Assembly (NCBI RefSeq): GCF_026210795.1
Contig: NC_089435.1
Span: forward strand, 5,208,001-5,272,000
From: Rhizophagus irregularis
Taxonomy: Eukaryota
Direction of reading: 5' to 3'
DNA: 64,000 nt
The notes beneath the pieces were generated by a model, which had not been told where the DNA came from, ran no database searches, and saw nothing but the letters and a program-made list of their open reading frames with translations. Below are positions 19,263 through 64,000 of the stretch, one piece after another; positions within the stretch are counted from its first letter, which is position 1; every line of letters starts with the position of its first letter. The position numbers and the translations under genes are program-made.

Positions 19263-20404
19263 AATTTAGTGTAAACGTTATAACAATTTAAAACATTGAT
19301 TTAATAATTTTACATAATTTATTACAATATTATTTATTAACAAATGCACAATTATTATTTAACGATGAGAATCTATATTAATCTATATTCATCAGATATC
19401 CAATGATCCATGGGTAATCCACACCTCTAATTCATTCATGTATCTAATGTCCGATGCCAAAGTAGAAGCTAGTGAAAACCTACAAGAAGGAAGAAAAGAA
19501 ACGTCAGTTAACGTTTCTTAAAAAAAATAATAATTAATTAAGTTTCGCAACACAATGTTGCGAAACTCACTGGTTCATTTTGATTTCCATTATCCAAACG
19601 TCTGGAACCTACAAAAAGTAAAAAAGAAATGTTAGGTAATGTTTCTTTTTAAAAAAAAAGAATAAAAATTAAGTTTCACAACACAATGTTGCGAAACTTA
19701 CCGGTTCGTTTCGATTTCTATTATCCAAACGTCCAGAACTTACAAAAAGTAAAAAAGAAACGTTAGTTAACATTTCTTTTAATAAAAAAAAACAAAAATT
19801 AAGTTTCGCAATGTAACATTGCGAAACTTACCGGTCGTTTCATTCATTCTGACGTCCGGAACTTACAAAAAGTAAAAGAAAAAAACGTTAGTTAACGTTT
19901 CTTAAAAAAAAATAAATAAAAATAAAGTTTCGCAACACAATGTTGCGAAACTCACTGGTTCGTTTCGAACTCCATCATCCAAACGTCCGGTGTTTCTACA
20001 AAAAAAAAAGGAAACTTAAAAACGTTTCCTTACAAAAAAAATTTAAAAAATATTTTTTTTTAAAAAAGTTTCGAAGCGAAAAACGCTTCAAAACTTACCC
20101 TTTTGGTTCCTTACTTCCTGAAGTCGAATACCGAAAACCTACACAAAAGAAAATAAAGGATCGTTAAAACGTTCCTTATAAAAGTAAAAAAAAAAATTTA
20201 AAGTTTTGAAGCGAAATGCTTCAAAACTTACCATCATTTCATTTTCTCGTTTCAGTAAAAGCATCGAAAATCTTACAAAAAAGAAGAAAGGAAACGTTAG
20301 AAACGTTTCTTTACAAAAAAGAATTAAAAAAAAGATTTTTTAAAAAGTTTCGTAATGAAATGAAACTTACTTAACGTTCTGAACACTCTGATCCTACAAA
20401 AAGG

Positions 20405-23400
20405 CACTGGTCAAAATAGTCCAAATCGGCTAGAAATCGGATGTCCGATTTTAGGCTGAATTTGGTGATAAATATGGCCGATTTATTAATTTAGGCAAAG
20501 TTCTGATTGGCAGGCCGATCGATGCCGATCAGAATGTCTGAATTGTATCTGAATTGCTTAGTATTTTTAATCCGAATTGTTTAAAAAATATTATTCATAA
20601 ATTTACCGAATTGCAGTGAATTTATTCTGAATTATGGTAAATTTGTGACAAAAGTTTCTGAATTGTAGTAAAATTTATTCCAAATTGTAGTAAAATTTAT
20701 TCCGATTTGTAGTAAAATTTATTCCAATTTGTAGTAAAATTTATTCTGATTTGTAGTAAAATTTATTCCGAATTGTAGTAAAATTTATTCCGATTTGTAG
20801 TAAAATTTATTCTGATTTGTAGTAAAATTTATTCCGATTTGTAGTAAAAAATTTATTCTGATTTGTATTCTGAATTGTATCGCAAATTACAGTAAATTTT
20901 ATTCTGAAATTTAAAATATTACATATACATATAAAACAATTTCACCAAAAATCATCCCAACTTTCTAACAAATCCGGTATATGTTAAATTCCTTAATTCC
21001 CATTTGTTTCTACAAATTGGAGATGATTTTCCTACAAAAAAAAAAAGAAAAAACATTAAAATAACGTTTTTTTTTAAGTTTCAAGTTTCAAAAATCAAAA
21101 CGTTACCTGTAGGATGGCAAATCGAAGCCAATTTCCATACAAAAAAATAAATAAAATATAATAAAAAATGTTAAATTAAACATTTTTATTAAGTTTCGTC
21201 AAAAAGTTTCGAAAAATCGAAACTTTACCTGCGGATTCTGGTACAATTTGGAGCTGATTTCCTGCAAAAAAAAATAATAAAAAATAATAAAAAAAACGTT
21301 AAATTAAACGTTTTTTTATTAATTTGCGTCAAAAAGTTTCGACGAAACTTTACCTGCGGGATTCTGGTACAATTTGGAGCCGATTTCCCTGCAAAAAAAA
21401 TAATAAAATCTAATAAAAAAATGTTAATTTAAACGTTTTTTTATTAAGTTTCATAAAGTTTCGAAGTTTCATAAAGTTTCGAAACTTTGAAACTTTACTT
21501 GCGGGATTCCGATATCCAATTTGGAGCTGATTTCCTGCAAAAAAAATTAATAAAAATAATAAAAAAAACGTTAAATTAAACATTTTTTTTATTAATTTGC
21601 GTCAAAAAGTTTCGAAAAATCAAAACTTTACTTGCGGGATTCCGGTATCCAATTTGGAGCTGATTTTCCTGCAAAAATATTAATAAAATATAATAAAAAA
21701 CGTTATATTAAACATTTTTTTTATTAAGTTTCGTAAAGTTTCGAAACTTCGAAACTTTACTTGCGGGATTCCGGTATCCAATTTGGAGCCGATTTCCTGC
21801 AAAAAAAAAATAATAAAAATAATAAAAAAACGTTAATTTAAACGTTTTTTTATTAATTTGCGTCAAAAAGTTTCGAAAATCGAAACTACTTGCAGGATTC
21901 CGATATCCAATTTGGAGCTGATTTCCTGCAAAAAAAATTAATAAAAATAATAAAAAAACGTTAAATTTAAACGTTTTTTTATTAATTTTTTCAAAAAAGT
22001 TTCGAAAAATCGAAACTTTGCATGTGGGACCGGTATCCATATTGGAGCCGATTTCCCTGCAAAAATATTAATAAAATATAATAAAAAACGTTATATTAAA
22101 CATTTTTTATTAATTTTTTTCAAAAAGTTTCGAAAAATCGAAACTTTGCATGTGCAATTTCGGTATCCATATTGGAGCCGATTTCCCTACAAAAATATTA
22201 ATAAAATATAATAAAAAACGTTATATTAAACGTTTTTTATTAATTTTTTTCAAAAAGTTTCGAAAAATCGAAACTTTGCATGTGGGATTCCGGTATCCAT
22301 ATTGGAGCCGATTTCCCTGCAAAAAAAAATAATAAAATATAATAAAAAACGTTATATTAAACGTTTTTTATTAATTTTTTTCAAAAAGTTTCGAAAAATC
22401 GAAACTTTACCTGCGGGATTCTGGTATCCATATTGGAGCCGATTTCCCTGCAAAAAAAAATAATAAAATATAATAAAAAACGTTAAATTAAACGTTTTTT
22501 ATTAATTTTTGTCAAAAAGTTTCGAAAATTCGAAACTTTACGGTATTCCTACAATAATATTAAAAAAAAACGTTAAACGTTTTTTTCAAAGAAGTTTCGA
22601 AAATGCGAAACTTATCTGGAATATCGGCGTCCACGTTGGAGCCGATTTCCTATACAAAAGTAAAAAAAAACGTTTTTAGTAATATTAAAAAACGTTTTTT
22701 AAAGTTTTTGAAACTTTTGTTTCGAAACTTACCTTTGGAAATCAGTATCCAATAGGGAGCCGATTTCCTATATAAAAGTATAAAAAAAATGTTAGAAAAC
22801 GTTTTTTTTTATAAAGTTTCGAAGAAATTCTTCAAAACTTACCTTTGGAATTCGGTATCCAAGTAGGAGACGATTTCCTATATAAAAGTATAAAAAAAAC
22901 GTTAGAAAACGTTTTTTTTTATAAAGTTTCAAAGAAATTCTTCAAAACTTACCTTTGGAATTCGGTATCCAAGTAGGAGCCGATTTTCTATTTAAAAGTA
23001 TAAAAAAAAAATGTTAGAAAACGTTTTTTAAAGTAATAGTTTTGCAAAAAAAAATTAATAAAATCAGAACGTTAACTAATGTTCTGATTGAAAATATTAA
23101 ATGAAAAGTTAAAAAACGTTTTGTAAAAAATAAAAATGTTAAAAATTGGAACATTATTTCCGATAAAAAATTAAAAAAAAATCCCAAAACGTTTAAAACC
23201 GTTTTGTTTAGGAATGAAGTTAGATGAAGATAAAGTTTCGAAACTTTAGTTTAAATAAAGTCTAAATTCGGTAATAGATCAACTAATTGCCAGATTAATT
23301 TTACTGTGGCTGCGGCTTAGTACATCATAAGTTGATTTTGAAAAATCGTTTATTCGAATAACTTCTAAAATTGAGACAATTTTTCCATGCCCAAAAGTTT

Positions 23401-25685: not shown

Positions 25686-27214
25686 ATGGTAATTAAAAAG
25701 CATATTTCTATTTTCTTTTTTTTTTGAAATAAATAGATAAACTAATAAAAAAAATTGATATTTTAAGGAAACCTTATCAACTAGCTCAAATAATTCTACT
25801 AAAACGAACAAGTTAACAACATATGAACGATTTGTTATTCCTACAAATAAAGATTTACAAGCTATTCAAGCTTATTCTCACGTTGCTAATACAGATGATA
25901 GTACTAAAACTTGGATGAATCTTTTTAATTCCTATAGAGAAGCAGCCAATTTTACTAATTCTCTTGAACTATTGGATGATACTACATTATAAGAACAGCT
26001 TTGTCAATTTTTTTGTGGTGTTAGAAAATCAGGAAAAAAAGAATATGCACCTTCTTCATTACATGTAGGCTTTGCTGCAATTGCTAGAGGATTGTCAGAT
26101 ATTTTTTATCCAAATAGAATTATTAATATTCGATGATAAACACAAATGGAAACGATTACATGAAATTTTTGATGGTCGAATTAAACAAATTCAAGACAAT
26201 CAAGATACATCCCGTAAGAAAACTGATGCACTTGAAATGTGTGAGATTAAAACTATCCTTGATTCACCAAATATACAAACTGATACACCAAAGGGTCTTA
26301 CATACTGTGTTTGGTTTTGGTTAACACTTCTTTGCAATCTGCGTAGTGGTGATCCAAAAAGACTAAAAAATTCCTGGATTGTTCTCAATGAAGATCACAG
26401 TATTGAAGTAAATATACCTCGTGAGAAAAATAATGCAGGAGGTGCCAAAAATCCTTACAATTCTGGTCAGCATAATTATATTCCTCCAGATCTACCAAAT
26501 AATTATTCACCAGTGGCAGATATTCTATTATATCAATCTAAAAGACCAAAAAACTGCAAAACTTCAGAGTTTTTTTTAAAAATAAATACACCACGAGAAA
26601 TATATCATGGTAATTGGTTTTCTGATTTAAAACTTGGCAAAAATTCTCATGATAATATGCTTAAAAATATTGTGGCAGATTGTAAAATTGATGCAAATGG
26701 ACGTAATCTTGTCAATCATTCAATGCGTTCAACTGGAATTTCTTTATGGATGTTACTTGGTATATCTCATGCAGAACAGATGGATATTACAGGACATAGA
26801 ACACTTGCTGGGATTTCTGCATATTCAACTTCAACTGCTCAACAAAGAAAAAAAAATGTTTCACTTCTTATTCCCCAAAAAAGAAATGCGGATGATCTTA
26901 ATGAAGAATGTTTAACTAAAAATTTTTCTAACAAAAAACAAAATCCTTTAAAAGAAAATACATCGGGAAATCAAGGTACCATAATTTTCCATATTTATTT
27001 TTTTACTTTTAATCTGAAAAATTACATATTTTTTTTAGGTTTTATTCCTGCTTCTCAATTATTACGATATGATCAACTTGAAATACAATCTTTAGAACAA
27101 GACCATAAAATAACTCAAGATTCATCAAAATTACCAATAATTAATATTGAAAATATTAATATTCAAAATTGTAATAATATAAAAGTAGAAGTTATTGTTA
27201 AACCATTTGAATAG
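25686..27214 (+). pseudogene. Crypton-type tyrosine recombinase (DUF3504-like)
   Basis: ATG at 25686; introns 25689-25767 and probably 26976-27038. N-terminal NTDDSTKTW...LCQFFCGVRKSGKKEYAPSSL. Catalytic set LRSGD, EKNN, HSMR, GHRT and AY (R-K-HxxR-H-Y). One TAA at 25990 and a frameshift near 26130. Confidence 0.85.
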
Positions 27215-28640: not shown

Positions 28641-29485
28641 AATTTTGGACAATGGTGCCCCTTCGACCTGTGATCTTTATGAAACGCCGAAAAGCTATGT
28701 AGGAAAAATAGAAGAGGAATCACGTGAACAACAAACAACAACAGTCTCACCCTTAGCTTTGCTGGATGATCATTCAATGGAAATAAAAATTTTAGAGGAA
28801 CCCAAACACCAATCACCAGTGGTACCCTTGTGACATAAACAAAATTTAATGTATAAACTCAGCTGTATATCCCAAGAGGAAAGAAGTGTGTGACATATGC
28901 TGAAATCACAAAAGGTTCTAGTTCTGATAATTTTCAGCTTACATTACCATTCTCTTTAAAAAAATGGAACACTCAAAAGACTTCACCCAAAAGTAGTACA
29001 GTAGCAGCAGAATACCAAGAAACCTAAATTTATACTAGAAAGAATGATTTCGACTGTTATGACTGGATATCTGCCACAAAATAAGACTTGTGTCTGTGAA
29101 ATAGTCATTTATGATATCCCCTCAACCATGTCGCAACTTGATATTCTTATGAACCTAGGGAAATGGGGTCAAGTAATTGCATTCAAAGTTAAGATGTAAA
29201 AGAAGTATTCAACTGTAACTGTGTCTATAGACTTCAACAAGTAAACTTTGCTTAATTGGAATAACAGAGTTTGGACTGCTCCATTTGGAAGACTGCCTGT
29301 ACGATAGTTTTCTGCATCCTGGAATTTGAAGCAACGCAAAGAGCAAAAAAAATTCCAGGCCGTTGTTATGGATGTACCCAAATCTGTTACTAACAATATT
29401 ATTTACAATGCAGCGAATCCAGCCTAATCAATGCTATCACAATTAGATGGTACTTTAGCATTCAAAATTATTTAAGATCATGGAC

Positions 29486-30376
29486 TAGAGCTCCGAACAG
29501 GTCAGCCAAATTCAGGTAATCTGACCTGACCTGACCTGACCTGAAATTCAGGTCAGGTATGAGATTTTTAAAAAAAATTCAGGTCAGGTATGAAGATTGA
29601 CCTGACCTGATTGACCTGTTAACCTGAAACTATTGATTCTACTATATAATAAAAGTGAGTTGCGGTATTGCGATTCACTTTTTTATATAGATTCTATATA
29701 ATAAAAGTGAGTTGCGGTATTGCGATTCACTTTTTTATATAGATTCTATATAATAAAAGTGAGTTGCGGTATTGCGATTCACTTTTTTATATAGATTCTA
29801 TATAATAAAAGTGAGTTGCGATATTGCGATTCACTTTTTTATATAGAATCTATATAATAAAAGTGAGTTGCAATACCGCAACTCACTTTTGTTATACAAA
29901 ATCAATATAAAAAAGTGAATTGCAGTATTGGGATTCACTTTTTTATATGATTTTAATATAAAAATGTTGAATCACAATATTTTGAGAAAAAACGTTGCGA
30001 AAACGTTTTTTCATAATATTATATTAAAAAAATGTTTCGTAACATTTTTTTTTTGATATTTCAATATTAAATAACGTTGCGAAAACATTTTTTTCATAAT
30101 GTTATATTAAAAAAAACGTTTTGCAATATTTTTTTCAATATTTTAATAAAAAACGTTGCAAAAACGTTTTTTTTCATAATATTATATTAAAAAAAAAAAG
30201 GTTTGTACCATTTTTTTTCAATACTTTAATAAAAATAGTCCTGAAATTTTTCAGGTTTCAGGTCAGGTCAGATCAAACAGACAACCTGATATAACCTGAC
30301 TTGACCTTACCTGAAAAAAAATTTCAGGTCAGGTTTATCAATTAACCTGACCTGACCTAACCTATTCAGAGCTCTA
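29486..30376. mobile_element. hAT MITE, TAGAGCTC family
   Basis: TIR tagagctccgaa / ttcagagctcta; perfect TSD tcatggac; cctga subterminal repeats; internal ~54-bp hairpin tandem at 29640-29950. Confidence 0.95.
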
Positions 30377-31139
30377 TCATGGACGAAAGAAGTTGATTGT
30401 ATATTTTGACACTTAGGTTAGTTTGGATAAAACACTCAATACAGAATTCACTTTGAAGAATTTAAAGGTATTTGGACTAGATATTTTTCGTCCACCTTGA
30501 ATCGGCTTAAAAATAAACTACCAAAAAAGACAGATTCTACTCAAAAGTAGAACTAAGAGAAGATTCTGAATGTTATGCAGAATGTGAATAAATCCAATAA
30601 TAGACAGCTTAAGAAAGGGAAGTCTTTTGAAAAAAAAAAGCAATCTACTTCAAATAACAAGGCTTCAATGGTAACGACAAACTTATGATTTTGGCTGAAA
30701 TTCAAACGTTGCTAAGATCATTGACCAACTGACGAGAATACTAGGCCAAATAAGGAAAAATGGGATTATGGAATGCTCGCTATTATATATATAAATATTA
30801 ACCCTTTTTTTTTACCCTGTTTTTTTTTGTTTAAATCCTTTTTTTTTTCTACTGTTTCATAATGGGTCTTGCTGAAATTTCCTTATAGGTGTAAACTGAG
30901 AAGAGGGAATCCCCTCTAAGAACAAATATACACTTAACACAGAAAGTACTCTCATAGCCTAAATTCTACTTGACAGTGTACATGTGGAATCCTTTTCAGG
31001 ATGATGAGTGGTTTAGTTTCTACTGATTATTAGTTTACTCTTTTCATTTTCATTTGTATGATGTATTATGATTATATTATTCTAATAAAGAAACTAAATA
31101 TGTTGCAGTAAAAAAAAAATAATAAATAAAATGTTTTCA

Positions 31140-47029: not shown

Positions 47030-50000
47030 ATTGTTCTTCTTCTTTTGTAAACTATAATTTCAGTCAACATTTTTTCAATTGGTTAAACATTTTTTTCAAC
47101 ACTTTTCACCCATTTAAAATTTCCTTTATCTTGTTGATCTATTAGACCATTAATAAAGAATTACATTAAACTTAATTTAATTAATTATAAATCAATTACC
47201 TTTAAGAATATCAAGTACTTTTTCTGTTGTACTAATAAGTCTTTTATATATCTCTTTACAAACTTGTAAATTTTCATCTTCAGCAACTTCAAAAATTAAT
47301 GCTATTTGTAAATTATGAGTATTAGATCATTCAAAATCAATAATTTGAGAAGATATTGTATTAATAAAAGGATATTGATGATAACGATAAACTATATCAA
47401 AAAATAAAGTATTCACTATTCCTTTTTGTTGCATAAGATATTTACAAATTAAAAAATGGCTAGTAAGAAAAGATAGGTATCCACAAAACCAATTATTAAT
47501 GTTAGTTAAATATAAGTCATTATTAAGAACTCGTAATGAAAGTTCCTTCCATTCCCTTTTGAATGCTTTTTACCAATCAGCTTTCTCTCGTTTTACAACA
47601 AAAATTTGATTAAATTTTTTTCATTATATGGAACCACTTGCTTCATGATAATAAAGACAACTAAATCCAGACACGAGTGAAAGAATTTGTATAGAAAATC
47701 ATGCTTTAGTACTTTTCAGTAAACTTTCACAAACATATTAGTTTTCATAATTGAAAATTTATTACTACATCCTACCCAAAACCATAGAAACCACTGGTCT
47801 ACACTATACCATTCATTTTACAGATAAACTCAAAGCCATGATAATAAATGCTGCTAACAAAAATCATAAATTTCTTTTACAGCTTCTTTCCAAATTTGAT
47901 TTAATAAACGAAACTGTCCATTGGCCATTGAAATAAGTGAATGTTCATGTAAATGTTTATTTATTTTTTTCCAGACTATAGAACATAATTCTTTTGGACA
48001 AAAAATAACTTTCTTCTTAGTTAAATTTATGGGCTAAAATAAAGGATCAATAAAAGAGAATCATAATTTGTGTACTACCTCGCCATTATAGTTAATTTGT
48101 ATTGGTTTTTTATTACTTGATAGTCTTACTTTTACTGCCTTTTCAATATACCAAAGATAGAGTTGTACCTTTATGTTTTTCCAAATAAAATGAATAGCTG
48201 ATATTTGAACAAAATTCTTATCACTTATAAAAAACTCTGATTCTAATTCATCACATTCTTTTAGTTGTACTAGAAAGTCAATTAAGATTCCAGTATGTAT
48301 TCTATTGCCACAATTTCCATTATTCTTCATGAACAAATATGCCAATAAAAATTTCATGCCATCGATTTCGGCTAGGACTCTGATCAGTTCGGTTCAGTAT
48401 GGTTTTTGCCAAAACTAAAACCGAACCGAATTGATCAGTATCGGTATTGTTAATTACCGAAACTGACTGGTAAATACTGAAAACTGAACTGATTTACTGA
48501 TTCATTATCAGTTCAGTTTTTAACGTTTTTGCAACGTTTTTTATTAAAAAAACGTGCAAAAACATTTTTTTTAATTAAATTAACTAATAAAAACGTTTCG
48601 CTAAATTATTGAAAAAAAATGTTGTGAAACATTTTTTTAAATTAAATTAACTAATAAAAAACGTTTTGCAACATTTTCTATTAAATTATTGAAAAAAAAT
48701 GTTGCGAAACATTTTTTTAATCAAATTAATAAATAAAAACATTTCACAACGTTTTTATTAAATTATCAAAAAAAAACATTGCGAAACATTTTTTTTTAAT
48801 TAATTAACTAATAAAAAACTTTTCGTAACGTTTTCTATTAAGTTATTAAAAAAAACGTTGCGAAACGTTTTTTTTAAAAATAAATTAACAAATAAAAATG
48901 TTTCACAACGTTTTTATTAAATCATCAAAAAAAAATGTTGCAAAACATTTTTTTTTAATTAATTAACCAATAAAAAATGTTTCACAACGTTTTCTATTAA
49001 GTTATTGAAAAAAAACGTTGTGAAATGTTTTTTTTTAAAATAAATTAACAAATAAAACCGTTTTGCAACGTTTTTATTAAATTATCAAAAAAAAATATTG
49101 CAAAACATTTTTTTTAATTAATTAACTAATAAAAAACGTTTCGCAACATTTTCTATTAAGTTATGAAAAAAATGTTGCATAACGTTTTTTTTAAATAAAT
49201 TAACAAATAAAAATATTTCGCAACATTTTTATTAATAAATTATCAAAAAAAAATGTTGCAAAACGTTTTTTTTAAAACAAATTAACAAATAAAAATGTTT
49301 CGCAACATTTTTATTAAATTATCAAAAAAAAATATTGCAAAACGTTTTTTTTAATTAATTAACTAATAAAAAACGTTTTGCAACGTTTTCTATTAAGTTA
49401 TGGAAAAAAACGTTGCAAAACGTTTTTTTTAAAATAAATTAACAAATAAAAACGTTTCACAACATTTTTATTAAATTATCAAAAAAAACATTGCGAAACA
49501 TTTTTTTTAAATAAATTAACTAATAAAAACGTTTCGCAACATTTTTATTAAATTGTCAAAAAAAATGTTTCATGACATTTTTTATCAACGTCATGAAACG
49601 TTCAGCAAATCAGTTCAGTAAATTTACCGAAATGATCAGTAAAATTTACCGAAGTGATCAGTAGAAACTGATACCGAAAATATCAGTTCGGTAAATCGGT
49701 TCAGTAAATCGCAAAACCGATACCAAAACTGAAGTTACCAAAACTGATCAGTAAATTTACTGAAAGGTTCAGTTCGGTAAATCAGAATACCGAAACCGTT
49801 CCGATACTGAAACTGATCGGTTCGGTTCGGTAATTACTGAAACCGATCAGAGCCCTAATTTCGGCATGTATTACATATAACTCAATTACTCAAACTTCAA
49901 ATTATTCGTATTATTTAAAAAAGAATAAATATAATTTATCAAATGTATTATAATTAAATTATACAAAAAAAAATACTTACATATAGTATCAACTCCAATT

Positions 50001-50672: not shown

Positions 50673-53527
50673 CATCAGTAAATTTTTTGGGATGTGGATC
50701 CCTAAGGATTCTATAAATTACTATAGAATCTTTAGAGATCCAGTATTTTATGGATTTCTCAAAAATCCTATAACAAATTTTAAGGATTTTTTTGGATTCT
50801 GCAGCTTATAGGATTCATAAGGATTTCCAATAAAAAATCTTTAAGGATTCTATACTAAAAATCAATTTTACTTTTCACGTAAAATGATCTACAAATATGT
50901 GTTACAAAATTATTGATGTCATATGACTTGTTCGATTTCAAAAAAAATGGTTTCTTTTTTTAAAATAAACTTTAACAATATCTTTTCTTTACCACTCACA
51001 TGTAATTTTCCTTCCTCTTCATATGTTTCCCCTTTTACACGTTCTTTCCTATATATTTTTCTCTTCCCCTTTCACTCTATGTACTTTCTTTTTTTTTCCT
51101 CTTTCCAATGTTAATATAGAATATTTTTTTGGAAATTAACATTTTTTTTTCGATTTAATTTTCAAAGCTTTTTTTAAAAACTTTCTAACGTTTTTCTATA
51201 TTTTTAGATAGCTTCTTAAGCTCTTTGGTCGATGGCATTTTGGTAGGTATTTTTTTTTATTTTTTCTTTATTTATTTTAATGAACATTACTAATTCATTT
51301 TTTTTTCTTTTTTTAGAATTTTTTTCAATATAGAAATGCAGTATATATATATATATATATATATTGAGTAAAAATTTTTTGTTTTGATGAATATTATTTA
51401 CTAATTGTTTGTCTTCTTTTTTTTAGGTATTTTGTTGAGACTCTTAACATAAACGAAATTGAGTAAGTAAAAAAATTTTTTAATGATTTTTTTATTTTTT
51501 TTTTATTTTAAAATTTATTAATTGGTTTGTTTTATTTTCCTTAGATTTTTTCAACATGAATATTCAATAAGTAAAAATGATTTTATAGTTTTTTTATTTT
51601 AACGAACATTACTAAATATTCATTTTATTTCTTTTTTCTTTAAGCAGTTTCTTAAAATCTCTCTGGGTGTTGATGGGAATGACAGGTATTAAAAAAAATT
51701 TTTTTTTTCTTTTTTCTTAATGAACATTTCTAATTGTTTGTTTTTTTCTTTTTTTTAGGTATTTTTTGAGACTATGGACATGGGAATTTGGTAATTAAAA
51801 ATATATATACATATATAATTTTTTATTTTAACGAATATCATTATTAACTTTTTATTTTCTTTTTTTTTTAGCAGTTTCTTTGAGTCTTTCTAGAAATGAT
51901 GTTGTGAAATACTGGTGAGTAAAAGAAAAATATTTTTATATTCTTTTTAATATTAATAAACATTACTACCAAACTGTATTTTTTTTATTATAATATTATC
52001 GAAACATTACATACTACAGATAAATCTGCAATTTCAGCATAGATCATATGACTTATTGATTTGATTTACCGATTGATAATCTTTTTTTAAAGTTTTTTTT
52101 TAACTGAATTATTTAAAAAAATTTATTTCCTTTTTATAAATCATTTTTTTTTTTAAATCAAATATTTTTTTAAAAAATTATTTTCTGAATTTATTTAAAA
52201 AGAAACTTTTTTTAGCCTGAGTGATTTTTTATCAGTTTTTAAATCAAATAATTTTTTTAAAAAAATATATATTTTTTTTTTCTTTGGACTTAGTTTTTAG
52301 CATAGAATGGTAAGTTGAGGAGTACAGTACATATTTTTTTTATTATAGAAATGTTTAATACTAATGTTCCTTTTCATTTTTTTCTTAAAGACGGCGAACT
52401 TCAGTCTGGAACTTTGGAATGGTAAATTGAGAGGGGGGTTGTGTCTTTTAAACAGTTACTTATTTCTTTTTTCTCTTTTTAGAGGGTTGTTCTTCAGCTT
52501 TTTAGACGTAAAATTTGGCGAGAATAGTTTTTCAGTGAGGTTAAATAATTTTCGTTTTTTATTTTGTTAATGAATTATTTCTAACAGTTCAATTTTTCTT
52601 TTGTAGATGGGCTTGTTTATTTGGATATTAGACATGTGAAAGTTGGTAATGGGGTTACTTTTAATAATAATTTTTTTAACAAAACTTAATTAAAAGAATA
52701 AAACTAATAGCATTTTTAATTCTCTCCTGTAGATATTAACTTTAAACTTGGATATTGCTTGAGATCAGATATTTTGACATGAGATCAGGTACATACTGTT
52801 TATTTAAAGAAATTTCTTTGATTTTGTTTTTATTCAAAGATATTAATGATGCTTTTTTTTATTTTTTTTATAGATATCTGGCTTTGGACTTTAGATATGG
52901 AGTCAATACCAAAATTTGATGCAACTAATGGGAATTGTAATAATAATTTTAAAATTAATAAAATTAGACACATTTTAGTATTTAATTATTGAAGCTATTT
53001 TTATTTAATACTTTTGATTAATTAGCTTTAAAAAGAATATATAATAATGCATGGAATATAATAAATAGATGTATTAATAATAATAAATAAAATATAACAC
53101 ACGTCGAATGACCAAAAACAGGCAAAAAAAAATGGCTAGAATTGCATAAACTATTCGCAAATTTATATAAACTATTTACAAATAGTATAGGTTAATTCGC
53201 AAATAGCCAAAAACAGCCAAGAATAGCTAAAAATAGCCAAGAATAACCAAGAATATCTACTGCTTTTCATGCCATTTTTTTGCTGATTTTTAGCATTTCG
53301 ACCTGTGTAATAAATAAAATTAATAAATTTAATGATATAATAATAGACAAATATAAATAAAAAAATACTTTAAGGATTTCTTATTGGCGAACTTAGGATC
53401 CTTAAGGATTCTATAAAAATTTTATGATAGGGAATCCTCGCTGGTGGGAAAGGTTCCTTAGGAATCTTTACTAATTACAGGATTTTTGGAATCCCTAAGA
53501 ATCTGCGCTCCAAAAAATTTACTGATG
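50673..53527. mobile_element. Non-autonomous CATCAGT element
   Basis: TIR catcagtaaattttttgg / ccaaaaaatttactgatg; TA flanks; aaggattc subterminal motifs; contains array D and an orphan CACAGG right end at ~53308. Confidence 0.85.
51200..52900 (+). repeat. Array D: about 14 diverged intron/micro-exon units
   Basis: Repeated poly-T-(T/A)AG | 20-45 nt | GTA/GTGAG ... (A)CTAA(T/C) ... poly-T-TAG on the plus strand. Confidence 0.65.
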
Positions 53528-55207
53528 TATGAGATCTATTTACAACAATGGAAACAGACATATTCAAAGGTTTGTTTTTACTTAAGCTTTTTAATTTACT
53601 ATATGTTTATTGAAATTTATGATAGAAGAACCCTTTTGAAGAAGCTCTTTTCTTTGTATATTTAACAACTTCTTAAAAAACAAATTTTTTGGGTTTTATA
53701 ATAAATTATTTACATGATTTTTCTTTGTTAGAAACTGATCTATCTATTATTTTATTTTCTTTGAATAGTGAATGACTCTTTTTCATTCCTTTAAATAAAA
53801 TACAAAATCTTAAAAATAACTTATTGGTAAGAAATTTTATGATGTAATATTAGTAATATAGTATTATTTTCTCAGTGTATATATTGGCTAAACAAATAAT
53901 TTTACATTTTAAAAGATTAAATCACTCTAATTTTGGAATCAAAGATCTTTCCAATTGATTCACTACATATAGAAATATTGACAATCAAATTCATAATTAG
54001 GAATAAATGTGTTGAACGCATTTATTCATCAACCAATGATTCAACTAAAGTAATTTTTAATTTGTTGGATAGGTCTTGGACTCTTGGTCTATTCTTTAAA
54101 GTAAATATAAAAATGTCAGTCTAGTTTATATGTAAGTTAAATTATTTGCATTTTTTTTATAAGAATTATGTTTGATTTTAATTTTACACAGATGATATAT
54201 ATTAAAGTTCTTTATTTTACATCCATATTCAGTAAAATTTTGAATACAAGTATATCAAGTTGCTATTTATTAATTTGGAAAGTTTGAGTTATAATTATTA
54301 TGTAGAATTTTAAATTCACCAAATATTTATATCAAAAAAATGTATTGATCACGTTAAATTAATAAGTTGTTATATATAAAAGTTAGTCAATAATAATCTG
54401 ATTTTAATAAAAATTGGTATAATTAAAATTTAATATAGAACATATATATTAATAGAATTTAAGGATATATTAATATGCCATGTTGCATATTGGAATTGTA
54501 TATCACGTGATAAAATCAAAAAAATTCGTGTGATAAAATCGAAAGCCTGCTATGCTCTTTATTAATAATGATTTTTATGCAACTTTTACACAAATACTGA
54601 ATCATCAATTGATTATCACAATGCTTATTAATATCTGAATGTTTTTTTGATTTTTCTTTTAAGCAATCTCTCTGAGAATAATAATATCGATAAGTTATAT
54701 TTTTTCTTTTTTTTCATTAAAAGTATCGTGAAATCTTTATTAAAAAAATAATAAAATTAATAATAAACACCTATAATCAAATATTGTAAATAAATTCAAC
54801 TCACATCCAGGTATATTTGTCCACATCAAATATTATTTTTACAAATACAATTGGCTTATTCCTTTAAATCACCTTCCAGTTTAGTACTTTTTATAGTACA
54901 AGAAAGTTTAAATTCATGATTTTCTTTGTTCTTACTATTATTCATATTTTCAAATAAATCTGCTATATAGTCATCAAATCCACCATAATGCAATCAACAT
55001 CTGCATTATTTTGCATTATTTTTCACTGATAAACTTTCTTATTTGTAATGCGACATGTATTGCAAGTACAAAAGGATTTTCCATTAACAGTAAATAAGTT
55101 AAGAGGTAAAGTTTTTTTACCTTCTTTACAATACTACTTGTTATTGTCATTTGTCATAAGAATTTTTGAAGTCATTATAGTTCTATAAATATTTTAAATG
55201 AATATTA

Positions 55208-55718
55208 CATCAGGAAATTTGTTTAGGCGTAATTTAGTGTAATATTTCGGAGGTGGTGTAAAATTTCAAAATATTACACTAAAAACGTAATATTACAAAA
55301 GTTTACATTCTTAAATTTGAATAATTATAGTAATTTAAGAATATCTCTCTATTTACTGATTCAATCAAGATGATTTATAGCTCATTGGAATCAGCTCATC
55401 AAGACGAATCGAATGGTAGTAAATCGCATTTCTACAGTTGATAGAACGTTTTGTAGTATGCAATAAAGTTTTAAATTCATCTATCGAACGTAAAGATATG
55501 ATTTTACTACCATTCGATTCGTCTTGATGAGCTGATTCCAATGAGCTATAGATCGTCTTGATTGGATCAGTAGATAGCAAGATATTTTTAAATTACTATA
55601 ATTATTCAAATTTAAAAGTGTAAACTTTTGTAATATTACGTTTTTAGTGTAATATTTCAAAATTTTACACCACCTCCGAAATATTACATTAAATTACACC
55701 TAAACAAATTTCCTGATA
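55208..55718. mobile_element. Foldback MITE, CATCAGG family (second copy)
   Basis: Palindrome catcaggaaatttg...caaatttcctgata; TA TSD. Confidence 0.9.
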
Positions 55719-55721
55719 TAT

Positions 55722-56898
55722 TAAAGCTCTGAATGGTTTTGGTTTAAACCAGGAACCAATCTGAAACTGACCAAAAATTCAGTTCAGTTTTCAGTTTGGT
55801 TCAGTTCTATTTTATTTTAAGAAAAAGTGTGAAAATCAGAATAACTCAACAACCAGTAATCATATAAAGACGTGCAATAGCTCATTAGAATCGCCTTATC
55901 GAGACGCATTGAATGGTGGTAAGATCATATCTCTAGTCTTGATATATCACGAGATAATCAATGCTAAACAATTTTTAAGAAACTAGTACTAGAATTGTAT
56001 TTATTAATCCTAGAGAAATAATCTTAGCATCATTTGATAAGCCTTAATGAGACGAATCTAATGAGCCTTTTTTCATTTTTTTATGATTACTACATAACGA
56101 GTTAACTTAATTTTTGCATTTTTTTAAATTTTTAAATGTCAAAAAATAAAAATTCCAATCTAAAATATAACCCATCATCTACTGATTGCATTGGAATGAT
56201 CTTTAGCTCATTAGAACCATCTCAATGAGATGAATTGAATGACAGTAAGATCATGTCTCTAGCATCAGTGATCAGTATATCACGAGATAAACTATGCTAA
56301 GCAGTTTTAGAAAATTAGTATTAAAAGTATCTATCGATGCTAAAGACATGATCTTACTGTTATTCAATTCGTCTCATTGAGACGGTCCTAATGAGCTAAA
56401 GATCGTTCCAATGCAATCAGTAGATGATGGGTTATATCTTAGATTGGAATTTTTATTTTTTGACATTCAAAAATTTAAAAAAATGCGAAAATTAAGATAA
56501 CTCATTATGTAGTGAGTATAAAAAAATGAAAAAAAACTCATTAGATTCGTCTCATTAAGACCTATCAAATGATGCCAAGATCATTTCTCTAAGATCAATA
56601 GATACTATTCTAGCACTAGTTTCTTAAAAATTGTTTAGCATTGATTATCTCGTGATATATTGAGGCTAGAGATAAAATCTTACTACCATTCGATGCGTCT
56701 TGATGCGGTGAATCTAATGAGCTATTGCTTGTTTTTATACGATTACTGGTTGCCGAGTTATTCCGATTTTCACATTTTTTTTTTAAAAATTAGATAAAAT
56801 CGAACTGAACTGGACAGTTCTGGTTCAGTTTTCATTCAGTTTTGATTCCTACCTGAACTGAAAAAAAACTGCACTGAATTGACCCATTTTGAGCTTTA
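55722..56898. mobile_element. hAT MITE with a ~1-kb foldback interior
   Basis: TIR taaagctc / gagcttta; TSD aatattat, left copy split by the CATCAGG insertion; interior is an inverted repeat centred near 56300. Confidence 0.85.
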
Positions 56899-57315: not shown

Positions 57316-57993
57316 ATCTTTATCTTCTATGTGGGGACCTGCTTCTACCTCTTCTTCTATCTCTACTTCTGTCCCGTCTTCTATCTCTACTTCTATCTCG
57401 TCTTCTATCTCTACTTCTATCTCATCTTCTATCTCTACTTCTTCGATCTACTTCGATCGGAGACCTAGATCGCGACCTTCTTCTTTCCCTTCGCAATCTA
57501 TATTCATATCGACGTCGATCATGCGCAGCATGCTGCCGTCGATACTCTCGTCTAAACAGATCTAAAATCCAATAAAAATATTAATGAATTGAATGAATTG
57601 CCTAAATAAAATTAATTTAAAATAATAATTAATAATAATTACCGGTTTGTAACCAGAATTCATCGTTCATATCAGCAAAACACGCTCTATCGAAACTATT
57701 TGGGCTTATAATAGGAATGTCGTCATCATTATTATTTATTATCCTACTGAGGTTTTCATAACCTCGTTTGAGGGCATTCCATTTTGTTTGGCATTGCCTG
57801 GGTGTCGCTGCAAATCCCGTTGCAACGAACACCCTATTTGCTATTATTGTCCATGCATTTACATGATGACGGTTTGCAATTCTTTCGAATTGCTGATGTA
57901 AGCTTTCCGCTCCGCGATTAATTGCCTAGCTGCGTTAATCGTCCATTGGAATACTGGTGGTGGCGGTGGGACAAAAGGTACTAATGCTGCCAT
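57316..57993 (-). pseudogene. Myb/SANT-like (trihelix-type) DNA-binding protein with RS/RD-rich tail, frameshifted
   Basis: MAALVP...QWTINAARQLIAER / ...AWTIIANRV...TPRQCQTKWNALKRGY; intron ~57562-57642; second exon RSRSRSP...(DRSRDRRR)n; 1-nt frameshift near 57900. Confidence 0.7.
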
Positions 57994-58662: not shown

Positions 58663-61600
58663 TTATTCCTCATTATCATCATAATTATCGTCATTATTAT
58701 CACCGTCATCCATACCTAATACATCATCTATATCATAATCATAGTCACCTTCTCCGGGTCTCTTGTTATTACCACTATCATCAACTTCATCATCTTCCGC
58801 ATTATTTTCATCTGAATCATCCAATATATCTCTTGGAATATCGCCGATTTCACTAGTAATTGAATCATGCGATAAATTAACAAATTGATCAATCCATAGA
58901 CTTTCGATTACTACACGGCAATTGTCTTCGGGTATTGTTTCACCGCTTGTAGTTAATCTCTGAGTAGAAGCTTGCTCCTCATTATATTCCTCATCGTCAT
59001 CTTCTGCAAAAGCTTCTGCAATACGTATATTGATCTCATCATCACTAAGACGAGTATTCACTGGTCGAATGAAGGGCTACCGGGTAAATTTCATATACCC
59101 GATAGCCCTATTATATGTTTTCGATTTTAACCTGAATGGCAGCTGATCGATCCACCCGATTTGTGACCGGTTCTCGGTGCAGATCAGGTATAAGTCATGT
59201 GACTTTCAGGTTAGAACATAACGGTAAAGTGCTATATGAATATCGGGAGAATTTCAGCAATCCGATATTTCTCCGAACTATTTATAATATTAGATGTATA
59301 TTTGCTACATCGAAACCCGAAACTTATTATTTATTTATTTATATATACTATATATTATTCATTTATTTATTTATTTAACATAATAACATATATATATATT
59401 TATTTTATTATTATATTTTTAAAAATTATATTCGTTAATTTATCCTATTCTATCTATCTACATTATGTTGTTAATGGTTTGGAATATTATTCCAGTTGGT
59501 TCGATTCCAACAAACAACTATTTTTCCCAAAGTTTTTATGCCAACTCTTCCGAACTATTGCCTACTAATACCAAACGAATTAAGCAGAAGATGGATATTA
59601 GATTGTGGTGGATTAGGTTGATTTTGACTTGGTAAAATTGTGAGTGAAATATTATTTCGTTCTCTATAAAAAAAAAGAACGTTTAGTAAACGTTCTTAAC
59701 GAAAAATATTAAAAAAAATAAGTTCTGGTACCTTGTGTCAATTTCATCTTGAGCGAATTACCTACAAGAAAACGAAAAAAGTAACGTTAAAAATGTTACA
59801 AAAAAAAATAGAAAAACCCTTCTATTTACCTTTCGTCCAAAGTCCAGTTCGTAATCTTGTCTGGCGTTCCTACTAAAAAAGAAAGAAACGTTAGTACGTT
59901 TCTTTAAAACAATTAAACACCATACACCGCATTATCCCATATACCTAAGTCCAGGTTCTCCCAAATTCCTAGGAGTCCGGTAATCTAAAAAACAAAAAAA
60001 GAAACGTTAATACGTTTCTTTAACATAATTAAACACCAACGCTATACACTTCCCCATATACTTTACCGGGTTCTTCCAAATTCCTAGGAGTCCGGTAACC
60101 TAAAAAAATGAAAAAAAGAAACGTTAATACGTTTCTTTAATACAATTAATGCCATACACTCCTCCCATATATTTTACCGGATTCTTCCAAGTCCGGTAAC
60201 CTAAGAAAATGAAAAAGAAACGTTAGTACGTTTCTTTAACACAATCAAACGTCATACGCCACCCATATATTATACCGAGACTTCCAAGTTCCTAGGAGTC
60301 CGGTAACCTAAAAAAATTGAAAAAAGAACGTTGATACGTTTCTTTAACAGCCCCCATATATCTAAATCCGATTTATTGAAAAAAAAATATTTAGTTTCGA
60401 CAAAAAAACTTACCGAATTTAAATACCGAGCTCAACAAATCCTACAAAAAAAGAAAAAGAAACGTTAAAACGTTTCTTAATAAAAATAAAGTTTCGTAAC
60501 GATTTTCGTTACGAAACTTACCATTTCGACCTTAGAGTACCGGAGCGGCGGAGCCTACAGATTCTACAAAAAAAATAATAAGAACGTTAGAAACGTTCTT
60601 TGAAAAATAAAAAAAATATTGAAAGTTTGAAACTTACCCTCTCTTAGGCCTTAGCATCCCAGTCCGGTATAAAAGTCGAAGGGAGCCTACAAAATAAATA
60701 AAGAAACATTAGTAACGTTTCTTTAAAAAAAAAATAAAAAAAGAATCGAAGTTTCAAAACGAAACTTCGAAACCTAACCGAAATCCAATATCCAGAGAGT
60801 ATCTACAAAAAGAAGAAACGTTAATATAACGTTTCTTACAAAAAAAAGAATAAAAAAAGATTGTTTCGCAACGTTTAAACTTACCGTTTCGAAACACCGA
60901 GCCGAACACTTGAACCTACAAAAAAAGAGAGAAACGTTAATATAACGTTTCTCAAAGAAAAAAATTTTTTTAAGTTTCGTAACGTAACTAAACGTCGCGA
61001 AACTCACCGTCATTTCGAATTTCACAAGGCCGAAATACTTGAACCTACAAAAAAAAAGAGAGAAACGTTAATATAACGTTTCTTACAAAAAAAATAAATA
61101 AAAAATAAGTTTCGCGTTGTCAAAACTTACCATTCGAAAAGTTGCCATTTGACAAGCCCCCACTAACCTACAAAAAGAGAGAAACGTCAGAATAACGTTT
61201 CTCAAACTCAAAAGAAAAAAAATTCAGTTTAAGCTTGAACGCTGCGAAACTTACCGTTCGTTTCGTTGAAAAATGAAAAAAGATATTTCGAAGTATACTT
61301 GAAGTATATCTTCGAAATGTCGAATTTAATTTCGTCCGTCTAAGGAGCCGCCCAAAAGAAACCGAACCTAAAAAGAAAAAAAACGAAACGTTAATAAACG
61401 TTTCGTTGAAAAAAAACAAAAAAAAATATATTTCGAAGTATACTTCAAGTATACCTTCGAAATGTCGAGTAAGGAGCCGCCCAAAGAAGTCGAACCTAAA
61501 AAAGCAAAAAACGAAGCGTTAATAAACGTTTCGTTGAAAAAAAAAAACCCAAAAAGAAAGACATTTTGAAGTATATATACCTTCAAAATGTCTTATTGAT

Positions 61601-64000
61601 TTCCGTCCGTCCAAGAAGCCAAGAAGCCGCCCAAAGAAGCCGAACCTAAAAAGAAAAAGAAACGAAACGTTAATAAACGTTTCGTTAGTCGAAAAAACAA
61701 AAAAATAATTATTTCGAAGTATACTCGAAGTATACCTTCGAAATATCGAGTTCCGTCTCCAAGGAGCTGCCCAGCCGAACCTAAAAAAGCAAAAAAAACG
61801 AAGCGTTAATAAACGTTTCGCTAGTCGAAAAAATAAAAAAATAAATTATTTCGAAGAAGTATACCTTCGAAATGTCGAATTCCGAACCTATACCTTCGGC
61901 GTTCTGGACCTAAAAAATAAAAAAAGAATATTAGTGCTAACGTTCATTAAAACAAATAAAAAAAAATTTTTTGCTTACTCCGGAAGACTGGAACTAATTT
62001 AGATACCGGTATATGTCTTCGGCTTCCTTAAAGTCTCCAAGAGTCCGGCGTTTCCTTCAAAAGAAAAGAAGTCCGGAGACTACTAAAGTGAAACTTTTTA
62101 ATCCGTTTCTGCATGTTGCAGATTATATTCCGAACGTTGGACGAGCTTGCCAGAAGTTAGAAATTTGATTTCGAGTTAAATATTTGGTTCTTCAAAAGGT
62201 GTGATAAAAATTTATTTATTTAAAGTATTGTAAGAAAAAAGTTAAAAAAAAATTAACTTTAAAGTGTAAAAAAAAAAAGTTTATCAATTAAAAAAAAGAT
62301 CAAAGATTTTTGTGGGAATAGAAATAATTACATGCCGTAAATTATTCCAATGACCTATCAGACTACTGATAGGTATAATAAAATTTTCTGATATTTTAAT
62401 GATATGTCTTTAAAAAATCAGATTTTTTTCATAAAATATTATTAAACATTTCGGATTACCGATACTTGTAAATGTTTAATATTGCCTATCATGCCATATC
62501 GGGTTTCTGATTATTTCCTGATATTTGACCAATACGTTATTACCCGATATTTCATCATTTGACCAGTGATTCTTTTTTTGATCAATTCCATAAAATCCAA
62601 GTTCAGTTTTTGAATTGGATTTCCAATACAAAATTAATTTGCACATGGATTCTAGTTTATCCACATTAAGATTTAAGCGACGTTTATGAAATAGCCATCC
62701 TAAAGTCGAAAATCCACGTTCGCAAGTTGCTGAGTTAGGACATATTGCAAATAGATAACTTGCAATTCTTGGCAGGACATCTGGTTCTGGTTCGGTATTA
62801 ATATATTTCCACCAATTCACGGGATTATCTTTAGCAAAACCGATATCTAGGTCAAATGGCTCTTGCTCATTAATATATTTCTGTATTTGATCACATAAAG
62901 TTTCAGCTTCGTAACGGTCGAAACCTAAATTTTTCCCGATTGAAGCTGCACATTTGATAATTCTCATGAGGGCGCATTTTTTAAGTGGCGCGTTTCTAAA
63001 TCTGGGATCCATAAAAAAACAAGTAATATACTTATCATCATCGAATTCATCAAATCTTTCATTTATTACTTTGATACAATGACTTCGGAATGCAGGATTT
63101 AATGATTTGGGTAACTTTTTTAATGTAGCTGCAAGTCTTGCCAAGCTCAGGAAACAATCTGCAAGTGTAGCTCTTCTCGATTCTAATGAAAGTACCGCTT
63201 TTCTTAGAGGATCCAGAACAAACCCAAGAACTCGTAAATTTGAAAAAAAATTTCTCGATTGAATAATCGGTTTTATTTTATCATTTGTTAGCACTTTATC
63301 GTGATCGCTGGCCATTTCTTCTAGTGCTGATTCCAAATTTATTACTGAATTTACGGATTCACTAGCAGTAGTCCAGCGTGTCTTGCAATATAATTTTAAT
63401 CCTCCTCCACTAATTCCTTTTTCTTTAATTATTTGAGCAAGTTTTGCATTAGCCTGATGAGAACTTCTAAAAAAGGTTGTCAAAATATTAACACGTTTTA
63501 ATAAACGTTCCCCAAACTTCTCCTTGACGATGTCGCATGCAATTAAATTGATAGAATGTGCAACGCATCGCACATTCTCAATCTTTGGATGATTCTCATG
63601 TATAATTTTTCGTGCATTACGAACATTGGCCGCATTATCGGAAACTACAGCACATATTCGATCTTCTCCAATACCTTCTATAACCTTTTCAATTACCGTA
63701 ACTAGATATTCTGCAGTGTGCGAATTTTCAGACAAATCAGAAAGTTGATAAAGATATTCTTTACGCGACGGAGTCATTACAATGAAGTTCCAAATTGAAC
63801 GATGTGTACCAGACGTCCAACCATCAAAGGCTAAATTATAAATTAATATTATATAGTAAGTAAGATTAAATAAAAATGACGTATGATAGCCTATTTAATT
63901 TAACAAACCTAACGTTAAATTCGTTTCCTTTTCAAGCTCAGAATTAACTTTGAAGTTCACTTGAGCTAATTCACGTTCAAGTAGTTGATTTACTAATACT
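58663..64000 (-). CDS. hAT transposase (DUF659-type), interrupted near its C-terminus by a CACTG element
   Basis: LAFDGWT across intron 63831-63908, VVSDNAANV, RCVAHSINL, CKTRW, CPNSATCERGFS. Removing 59059-62568 and one TSD copy joins DQKKN-TRLSDDE in frame to the acidic tail ORF 58663-59061. Confidence 0.9.
59059..62568. mobile_element. 3.5-kb non-autonomous CACTG element (CACTA/CMC-like)
   Basis: TIR cactggtcgaatga / tcatttgaccagtg; 3-bp TSD att; no ORF of note; carries array C. Confidence 0.93.
59660..61980 (-). repeat. Array C: about 19 hairpin-intron/variable micro-exon units
   Basis: Example intron 60916-61007 (92 nt): GTGAGTTTCGCG...ACGAAACTT...GAGAAACGTTATATTAACGTTTCTCTCTTTTTTTGTAG. 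Exons checked are 24-49 nt, GC-richer and variable. Confidence 0.85.

What the first reader, a model, noticed from the sequence alone, without database searches (positions are those of the whole stretch)
59660..61980. Transposon-borne array of ~19 hairpin-locked spliceosomal introns separated by variable micro-exons
Seen: on the minus strand the conserved repeat is shaped like a complete intron of ~70-100 nt, similar in size to the HBS1 introns in this window. It has a GTAAG/GTGAG/GTATA donor, a CTAAC/TTAAC branch motif, a U-tract and TAG. In many units the donor pairs into a stem (GTAAGTTTCG..CGAAACTT), and the branch motif lies in a second stem (GAAACGTT..TAACGTTTC). The spacers are short and diverge much more than the splice signals, giving a repeat-spacer architecture. 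Manual joining of five consecutive exons gave stops in all three frames (longest run about 55 codons). The carrier is an otherwise non-coding CACTG element that inserted recently into an intact-looking transposase ORF. Inference: splice signals are being retained in a non-coding transcript. Possible roles are a source of structured intron RNAs or mirtron-like small RNAs, a spliceosome-stalling RNAi trigger (known in Cryptococcus), or a multi-intron disguise against silencing. I know of no description of this architecture.
Basis: partly seen in the sequence, partly recalled or inferred. Interest (0 to 1): 0.9.

Follow-up and report, generated by a model that had tools for sequence, protein, structure and literature searches.

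The report
Transposon-borne non-coding intron arrays
A jumping DNA element of a plant-root fungus carries a string of 19 short, mostly hairpin-forming predicted introns between tiny exons that spell no protein, similar strings recur several times nearby, and they may serve to load the element's RNA with the splicing machinery, although no spliced RNA was seen here.

Summary
On the minus strand of 59664-61978 lie 19 GT-AG units of 68-106 nt between exons of 23-113 nt. Donor scores far exceed shuffles, 17 of 19 have a branch motif, and 16 of 19 fold a branch-zone hairpin (0 of 14 host HBS1 introns). The joined exons have stops in all frames. The carrier is a 3.5-kb CACTG element with a 3-bp target duplication that splits a hAT gene. 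Fifteen deposited Rhizophagus irregularis gene models join these exons at 13 of the 19 introns, in mixed frames: a multi-copy, non-coding unit mis-annotated as orphan genes. Three more arrays and a relic lie in the window, not all in CACTG elements; the oldest keeps splice signals but has lost its hairpins. Against the reading: poly(A) reads showed intron-containing RNA and none of the 15 displayed joints matched a predicted intron; similar palindromes also occur without splice sites. Mirtron and snoRNA roles are not supported. Best guess: a slowly spliced transcript that gives the element a gene-like, spliceosome-loaded RNA (0.35); a passenger relic is close behind (0.3). No description found in nine literature searches.

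The parts
59059..62568 (-). Non-autonomous CACTG...CAGTG DNA transposon (CACTA/EnSpm-type ends) that carries the array; no ORF of its own with a known domain
   Evidence: (I23); ORF list
62540..62568 (.). Terminal inverted repeat, upstream end of the array
   Evidence: pair I23, 80% complementary over 30 nt
59059..59087 (.). Terminal inverted repeat, downstream end of the array
   Evidence: pair I23
59056..59058 (.). 3-bp target-site duplication, copy 1 (copy 2 at 62569-62571)
62572..63894 (-). 5' part of the interrupted host hAT-type transposase frame (DUF659, Dimer_Tnp_hAT)
   Evidence: 572 open codons across the empty site
58666..59058 (-). 3' (acidic) part of the same host frame
59664..61978 (-). 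Array A: 19 predicted U2-type introns and 18 internal micro-exons, non-coding
61910..61978 (-). Intron 1, weakly structured; resembles introns of the old array D
   Evidence: 81% over 59 nt to 51261-51316
61255..61864 (-). Sub-array 1: introns 61864-61781, 61735-61646, 61580-61496, 61454-61368, donor in or beside an exon-intron stem; then a broken unit (AT donor at 61309)
   Evidence: introns 2-4 used by 8, 7 and 6 of 15 gene models
60308..61254 (-). Sub-array 2: introns 61254-61168, 61130-61045, 61007-60916, 60884-60803, 60778-60687, 60637-60564, 60521-60442, 60413-60308, GTRAGT donors, often with an intron-internal donor stem; about 70% alike to array B
59873..60275 (-). Sub-array 3: introns 60275-60201, 60177-60100, 60066-59985, 59944-59873; near-identical duplicated exons, no donor stem, branch hairpin present
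59664..59829 (-). Last two introns 59829-59762 and 59731-59664
19480..20400 (-). Array B, 3' part (5' part at 24281-24700); split by another CACTG element, so not itself that element's cargo
21030..23000 (-). Array C, inside the CACTG element 20405-24280 (3-bp target duplication)
51110..52900 (+). Array D: older, CpG-poor, splice signals kept, hairpins mostly lost

Best explanation
A non-autonomous CACTG-ended DNA transposon of a Rhizophagus fungus carries a non-coding string of duplicated exon-plus-intron modules that is likely transcribed, is predicted to be spliced slowly because hairpins cover its splice signals, and would thereby keep the element's RNA loaded with spliceosomes so that it passes as a host gene and is less easily silenced. 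Shown: the splice signals and their strand, the lack of a frame, growth by local duplication and fusion of sub-arrays, the recent insertion, multiple copies. Inferred: transcription from this element, recognition by the U2 spliceosome, slow splicing. Untested: any effect on silencing or transposition.
For: Splice signals far above chance and on one strand only in four arrays whose exons have diverged to chance level. No frame: stops in all frames, 6 of 18 exons multiples of 3, and 15 gene models cross introns 3 and 15 in all three phases. The unit rides on an element that moved recently and has further copies (9 gene ids in one annotation, 5 in another), so it has not stopped the element from spreading. 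Outer stem pairs co-vary: 104 of 120 Watson-Crick against 81.4 +/- 3.6 when arms are permuted among 24 units. The three sub-arrays differ in donor-side sequence, two of them keeping a stem of different build. CpG is kept (observed/expected 3.1, 2.2, 2.6 in A introns, B, C; 0.6-0.7 in HBS1 and D). Poly(A) reads carry intron modules joined to exons, and intron places are no thinner than exon places (median depth 39 and 51 against 14.5 and 24), as expected of retained introns. Precedent for introns as a barrier to nuclear RNAi: abstract of PMC5554785; for cumulative need of introns for RNA accumulation in a fungus: abstract start of PMC3744415.
Against: No junction read at any predicted intron among the 15 joints displayed. 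The reads are from both strands alike, come largely from other family members (63-71% run on unlike the window), and no silent or spliced control was laid, so DNA carry-over or antisense A-rich priming is not excluded. In Cryptococcus poorly spliced introns trigger silencing, the opposite effect (passage of PMC5851062). Array D keeps splice signals without hairpins (branch zone 2 of 11), and AACGTT-core palindromes form arrays with no splice sites at 48520-49590 (0 introns called on either strand), so the hairpins may be a DNA-level habit of these elements. The covariation count ignores shared ancestry and palindrome correction by template switching. High CpG may just mean youth. The gene models are predictions and I saw only their proteins.
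Confidence: 0.35

Rival explanations
1. Passenger relic: the element captured, or inherited from a multi-exon tnpA-like or host gene, a few exon-intron modules that then multiplied by slippage and unequal exchange. The frame decayed, splice signals look kept because copies are young or homogenised, and the hairpins are DNA palindromes with no role in RNA.
For: Neighbouring units are more alike than distant ones; the array is a fusion of sub-arrays with a broken unit; palindrome arrays without splice sites exist in other elements; no junction read; CACTA elements are known to carry captured, splice-competent exons (abstract of PMC1947982) and multi-exon tnpA regions (passages of PMC2613891).
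Against: Distant exons are at chance identity while GT, branch and AG persist in 19 of 20 units; the decayed array D keeps splice signals; no protein relative outside the element's own gene models was found, and exon lengths keep no frame.
Confidence: 0.3
2. Silencing trigger: stalled spliceosomes on the hairpin introns feed the RNA into RNAi, as with SCANR in Cryptococcus, and yield small RNAs that limit the element's family; the benefit is to the host or to a self-limiting element.
For: Predicted weak accessibility of branch and donor sites; intron-containing poly(A) reads; mechanism known in Cryptococcus (passage of PMC5851062); 41% of R. irregularis small-RNA loci come from unannotated regions and 10% from genes, mostly without known domains (passages of PMC8647823).
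Against: The arrays sit on elements that are still multiplying and are CpG-rich rather than decayed. No small-RNA data were examined.
Confidence: 0.17
3. Host-serving spliced long non-coding RNA or spliceosome sponge: the transcript or its excised introns tie up splicing factors, for example in dormant spores, and the transposon is only a vehicle.
For: Four arrays and a relic in 64 kb; D has no recognised carrier and keeps splice signals; the intron 3' module is the conserved part.
Against: Joined exons are not clearly structured (-237.9 against -226.6 +/- 7.9 kcal/mol in 25 shuffles); read depth is low (tens) even summed over family members; no stable intron was looked for.
Confidence: 0.1
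4. Host gene for mirtrons, snoRNAs or other intron-encoded small RNAs.
For: Introns are more conserved and more structured than exons.
Against: 0 of 19 introns pair their two ends, no RTGATGA box in any, stems are about 10 bp; the only Rfam match was 22.9 bits against a gathering score of 60.
Confidence: 0.05
5. A real protein-coding orphan gene family, as annotated.
For: 15 deposited protein models of 87-211 aa.
Against: The models start at different places, skip different exons and read the same junctions in different phases; stops in all frames of the full join; no Pfam domain precomputed and no relative outside R. irregularis models in 1.84 billion representatives.
Confidence: 0.03

Closest known systems
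Fungal introner-like elements (ILEs; PMC3609843, passages read)
   Same: Multi-copy, sequence-related spliceosomal introns with stable predicted structure and compensatory changes, which decay into ordinary introns (compare arrays A and D).
   Different: ILEs are about twice the usual intron length and sit singly at new positions in unrelated coding genes. These are of ordinary length (68-106 against 54-92 nt in HBS1), stand in tandem with their exons, lie in a frame-less unit and spread as transposon cargo.
Same-gene intron duplications by duplication of exonic repeats (SGD class in PMC3609843)
   Same: Growth by local duplication of exon plus intron.
   Different: SGDs were reported as no more structured than other introns and are few; here there are 19, mostly structured, with no protein.
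Gene-fragment-carrying CACTA elements, Tgm-Express1 of soybean (PMC1947982, abstract) and the multi-exon tnpA region of En/Spm (PMC2613891, passages)
   Same: CACTA-type ends and 3-bp target duplication; multi-exon, splice-competent cargo in a non-autonomous element.
   Different: Cargo there is recognisable host gene fragments or a protein gene; here the exons match no protein family and the introns are the repeated, conserved part. Arrays B and D are not cargo of a CACTG element.
SCANR-targeted, poorly spliced transposon transcripts of Cryptococcus (PMC5851062, passages)
   Same: Transposon RNA with introns predicted to splice poorly.
   Different: There the introns lie in coding transposon genes and mark them for silencing; no array, no hairpin module, and the small-RNA outcome is untested here.
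Introners as MITE-like DNA transposons (PMC11282704, passages)
   Same: Link between non-autonomous DNA transposons and intron multiplication.
   Different: There each intron is itself the element, with terminal inverted repeats and a target duplication; here 0 of 19 introns pair their ends and one element holds them all.

Membership tests
U2-type spliceosomal introns | GT donor consensus, branch motif, pyrimidine tract and YAG in order on one strand | tested here: met
U2-type spliceosomal introns | Removal from RNA (junction reads or lariats) | tested here: inconclusive
   0 of 15 displayed joints match, 19 not displayed; short exons, other strain or copies, no positive control. Gene models use 13 of 19 introns but are predictions
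CACTA/EnSpm (CMC) non-autonomous element (carrier) | CACTR termini with terminal inverted repeats | tested here: met
   that CACTG ends with a 3-bp duplication mark this superfamily is recalled knowledge
CACTA/EnSpm (CMC) non-autonomous element (carrier) | 3-bp target-site duplication and an intact empty site | tested here: met
CACTA/EnSpm (CMC) non-autonomous element (carrier) | A cognate autonomous element with the same ends | not testable with these tools
   no whole genome held
Introner-like elements | Near-identical multi-copy introns with stable structure and compensatory changes | tested here: met
   (ancestry not corrected for)
Introner-like elements | Single introns gained at new positions in unrelated coding genes | tested here: inconclusive
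   within the window all structured units are in arrays and 0 of 14 HBS1 introns have the module; genome not available
Introner-like elements | About twice the length of ordinary introns | tested here: not met
   68-106 nt against 54-92 nt
Introners (MITE-type) | Each intron bounded by its own inverted repeats and target duplication | tested here: not met
   no end-to-end pairing in 19 of 19; target duplications per intron were not searched separately
Mirtrons | Whole intron folds into one pre-miRNA hairpin joining its two ends | tested here: not met
snoRNA host genes | Box C/D or H/ACA RNAs in the introns | tested here: not met
   no box C motif, no Rfam match; H/ACA boxes were tested only through Rfam
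SCANR-type RNAi substrates | Spliceosome-stalled transcripts that yield siRNAs | not testable with these tools
   no small-RNA or spliceosome data laid
Protein-coding orphan genes | One conserved reading frame across copies | tested here: not met

The most novel reading that the evidence does not exclude
Mobile elements of arbuscular mycorrhizal fungi carry a dedicated, exchangeable, genome-wide class of non-coding cassettes whose only product is engagement of the spliceosome: strings of hairpin-gated introns that set whether the element's RNA is read as a host gene or sent to RNAi. They would number in the thousands, account for a share of the genus's 'orphan genes', and be a nursery of new introns.
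Probability: 0.27. Interest if true: 0.88.

Novelty: new variant of a known kind. Interest (0 to 1): 0.66.

Why it matters
If spliced or spliceosome-bound, these arrays give a natural, high-copy test of an open question: do introns shield a transposon from silencing or betray it. Copies with young (A, B, C) and decayed (D) arrays can be compared in existing methylome, small-RNA and long-read data of a model symbiont. Whatever their role, they show that at least 15 deposited R. irregularis 'hypothetical proteins' are frame-inconsistent readings of one non-coding repeat unit, which bears on counts of orphan and lineage-specific genes in this fungus. They also offer a route of intron multiplication (tandem modules moved by DNA transposons) that differs from introners.

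Tried and rejected
No whole genome is held, so copy number, methylation and conservation across DNA copies could not be measured. Run search: no RNA holder listed by the index; this is no evidence either way. An exon motif in metagenome contigs gave 3 chance matches in GC-rich bacterial-looking genes; hairpin motifs in viral and prokaryote contigs gave 0. First protein search with an unspliced frame: 0 of 25 candidates. Rfam: nothing near threshold. Exons against the rest of the window: only chance-level 13-14 nt matches outside the array, so no sign of CRISPR-like acquired spacers within this small space. Perfect-stem count for donors did not separate array from host introns; the energy test did. 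Covariation used 24 of the 34 units of A, B and C that were offered; 10 without a five-pair core were dropped, and the T-A closing pair is forced by the anchoring. The automatic intron caller was trained partly on array A, so its score for A is not independent. Depth comparison used 39 of the 40 displayed variant rows (one place was listed twice) out of 230, and these places were chosen by the tool for showing differences; 0 of the 39 fell on a GT or AG, which has little power. PMC13465315 (passages) concerns coding Crypton elements and is unrelated. The supplement of PMC10234402, which may list junction support per gene model, could not be read.
Full report
Setting. The window is AT-rich fungal DNA. 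No genome is held for it. Exon-derived peptides are identical to deposited Rhizophagus irregularis gene models, so it is this species or a very close relative (inference).

The observation. Reading the minus strand I placed 19 GT-AG units between 61978 and 59664, 68-106 nt long, between 18 internal exons of 23-113 nt; introns are 25% GC and half T, exons 46% GC. A donor matrix from 14 HBS1 introns of this window scores the windows upstream of the 19 acceptors at 141.3, against 45.6 +/- 16.0 for shuffles (0 of 500 reach it) and 32.0 for the other strand; 17 of 19 units have a YTRAY motif 18-25 nt from the end. The introns fold better than shuffles (14 of 19 with z below -2, 1 of 14 host introns, p = 0.0004). 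By zone: branch hairpin 16 of 19 against 0 of 14, donor hairpin 10 of 19 against 0 of 14; a cruder perfect-stem count did not separate donors (9 of 19 against 7 of 14). In the 24 units of arrays A-C that have a five-pair core (of 34 offered), the outer stem pairs are Watson-Crick in 104 of 120 cells against 81.4 +/- 3.6 after permuting arms (0 of 5000). Units share ancestry and palindromes can be corrected at the DNA level, so this is suggestive, not proof of selection on RNA. The branch A closes the stem and the bases before it mostly lie in the loop.

No protein. All exons joined give 13, 10 and 9 stops in the three frames; the longest run from ATG is 53 codons; 6 of 18 exons are multiples of three. 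A search with an unspliced frame found 4 proteins among 80 candidates, a profile found 10 among 3047, and cluster look-ups raised this to 15 sequences: 9 gene ids of one annotation, 5 of another, and one older record, all 'hypothetical' or 'uncharacterized' R. irregularis models. Exact 8-9 residue junction peptides show that they use 13 of my 19 introns; 91 of 116 junction matches have both ends at my sites (matches are redundant where exons are repeated); introns 3 and 15 are crossed in all three phases. So independent predictors see the same introns in other copies but agree on no frame. One R. irregularis annotation was made with BRAKER on RNA-seq alignments and refined with Nanopore reads (passages of PMC10234402); that the OCT59 models come from it is my recollection, and per-gene support could not be read. 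The search of 1.84 billion representatives returned only two of the same models.

Carrier and growth. The array lies in a 3510-bp element with CACTG ends, about 30-nt inverted repeats and a 3-bp target duplication; without it the host frame is open for 572 codons and has DUF659 and hAT domains, so the insertion is recent. CMC elements are among the recently expanded families in this fungus (passage of PMC8647823). The array is a mosaic of sub-arrays with different donor sides and one broken unit at the seam. Neighbouring exons are more alike (0.53) than distant ones (0.44; shuffled 0.42), while the last 40 intron bases stay alike (0.81, 0.75; shuffled 0.59). This is tandem duplication of exon plus intron followed by exon drift, not uptake of foreign spacers.

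It is not alone. Array B (19480-20400 and 24281-24700) is about 70% like the middle of A and is split by another CACTG element with its own target duplication; array C (21030-23000) is that element's cargo; array D (51110-52900, plus strand) and a relic at about 830-1260 are older. The caller found 8, 10 and 11 introns in B, C and D and 0, 2 and 0 on the opposite strands. D is CpG-poor (0.71 against 3.07 in A introns), has lost most hairpins (2 of 11) and keeps donors, tracts and acceptors. Conversely, AACGTT-core palindromes form a long array at 48520-49590 with no intron called on either strand. Splice signals and hairpins can therefore be uncoupled: the signals are the lasting part, and the hairpin may be partly a DNA-level habit.

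RNA. The index listed no run on record as RNA (no evidence). Two poly(A) raw-read runs of the same species label gave 1006 and 1207 reads on 59600-62200 out of 11 million each; 63-71% run on into unlike sequence, both mate directions are about equal, and the commonest loose ends are intron 3' modules joined to other exons. None of the 15 displayed joints (19 more hidden) lies at a predicted donor and acceptor; depth at 33 intron places (median 39 and 51) is not below that at 6 exon places (14.5 and 24). Contigs of a run guessed to be RNA tile 59668-62009 unspliced and have no depth beyond 62036. This shows intron-containing sequence in RNA libraries and no spliced product. It counts against efficient splicing, but short exons, strain differences, decay of a stop-rich product and the lack of a spliced or silent control limit it; DNA carry-over is not excluded.

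Mechanism. Mirtron and snoRNA roles fail their tests, and the joined exons are not clearly structured. What is conserved is the ability to be seen by the spliceosome, many times over, on a mobile element. I put 0.35 on a gene-like disguise: introns hinder nuclear RNAi in worms (abstract of PMC5554785) and add up to support RNA levels in Cryptococcus (abstract start of PMC3744415), and the array-bearing elements are young, multi-copy and CpG-rich. A passenger relic gets 0.3, an RNAi trigger as in Cryptococcus (passage of PMC5851062) 0.17, a host-serving RNA 0.1. No step beyond the sequence anatomy is shown.

Known relatives and novelty. It works most like fungal introner-like elements in being structured, multi-copy and decaying (passages of PMC3609843) but fails their length and placement; it resembles cargo-bearing CACTA elements (abstract of PMC1947982; passages of PMC2613891) but the cargo is repeated introns, and it is not a MITE-type introner (passages of PMC11282704). 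Nine full-text searches (listings read) found no description of such arrays; the R. irregularis transposon paper PMC8647823 has no occurrence of 'intron', 'splic' or 'hairpin' in its main text. The library lacks most subscription papers and Repbase-type records. Earlier AI notes of this scan report exon-intron repeat arrays in other fungi; they are unchecked and suggest the architecture may be wider than this genus.

Verdict. Real, non-coding, multi-copy and apparently undescribed; splicing and function unproven. New variant of a known kind; interest 0.66.

Noticed in passing
window 19480-24700 (-): Array B is interrupted inside an intron by a CACTG element (20405-24280, 3-bp target duplication) that carries its own array C; a further CACTG end at 23415 suggests nesting.
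   Followed up: partly
window 51110-52900 (+): Older, CpG-poor exon-intron array with splice signals kept and hairpins mostly lost, preceded by a pyrimidine-rich stretch like the one before array B.
   Followed up: partly
window about 830-1260 (-): Relic of a fifth array: three or four intron-like units with decayed hairpins.
   Followed up: no
window 48370-49860 and 29480-30380: Elements with inverted ends that hold tandem AACGTT-core palindromes in alternating orientation without splice signals.
   Followed up: partly
window 26069-27214 (+): 381-codon frame with a weak DUF3504 match (E 7.5e-5, below the curated cut-off), probably a Crypton/Glomhopper-type tyrosine recombinase.
   Followed up: no
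   Followed up: partly
window 59600-62200: Reads and contigs show extra A's at many A-runs (table 4), so homopolymer lengths in the window's assembly may be short by a few bases; nearly all lie in introns.
   Followed up: no
window 55203-56787: Two long inverted-repeat (foldback) elements, arms of 221 and 452 nt, 90-93% complementary.
   Followed up: no
window 57340-57992 (-): Small two-exon gene, Myb/SANT-like by eye, ending in an Arg-Ser-Asp 12-nt tandem repeat.
   Followed up: no
proteins P0001-P0015: Fifteen public 'hypothetical proteins' are inconsistent readings of this one non-coding unit; many other low-complexity orphan models of Rhizophagus may have the same origin.
   Followed up: partly
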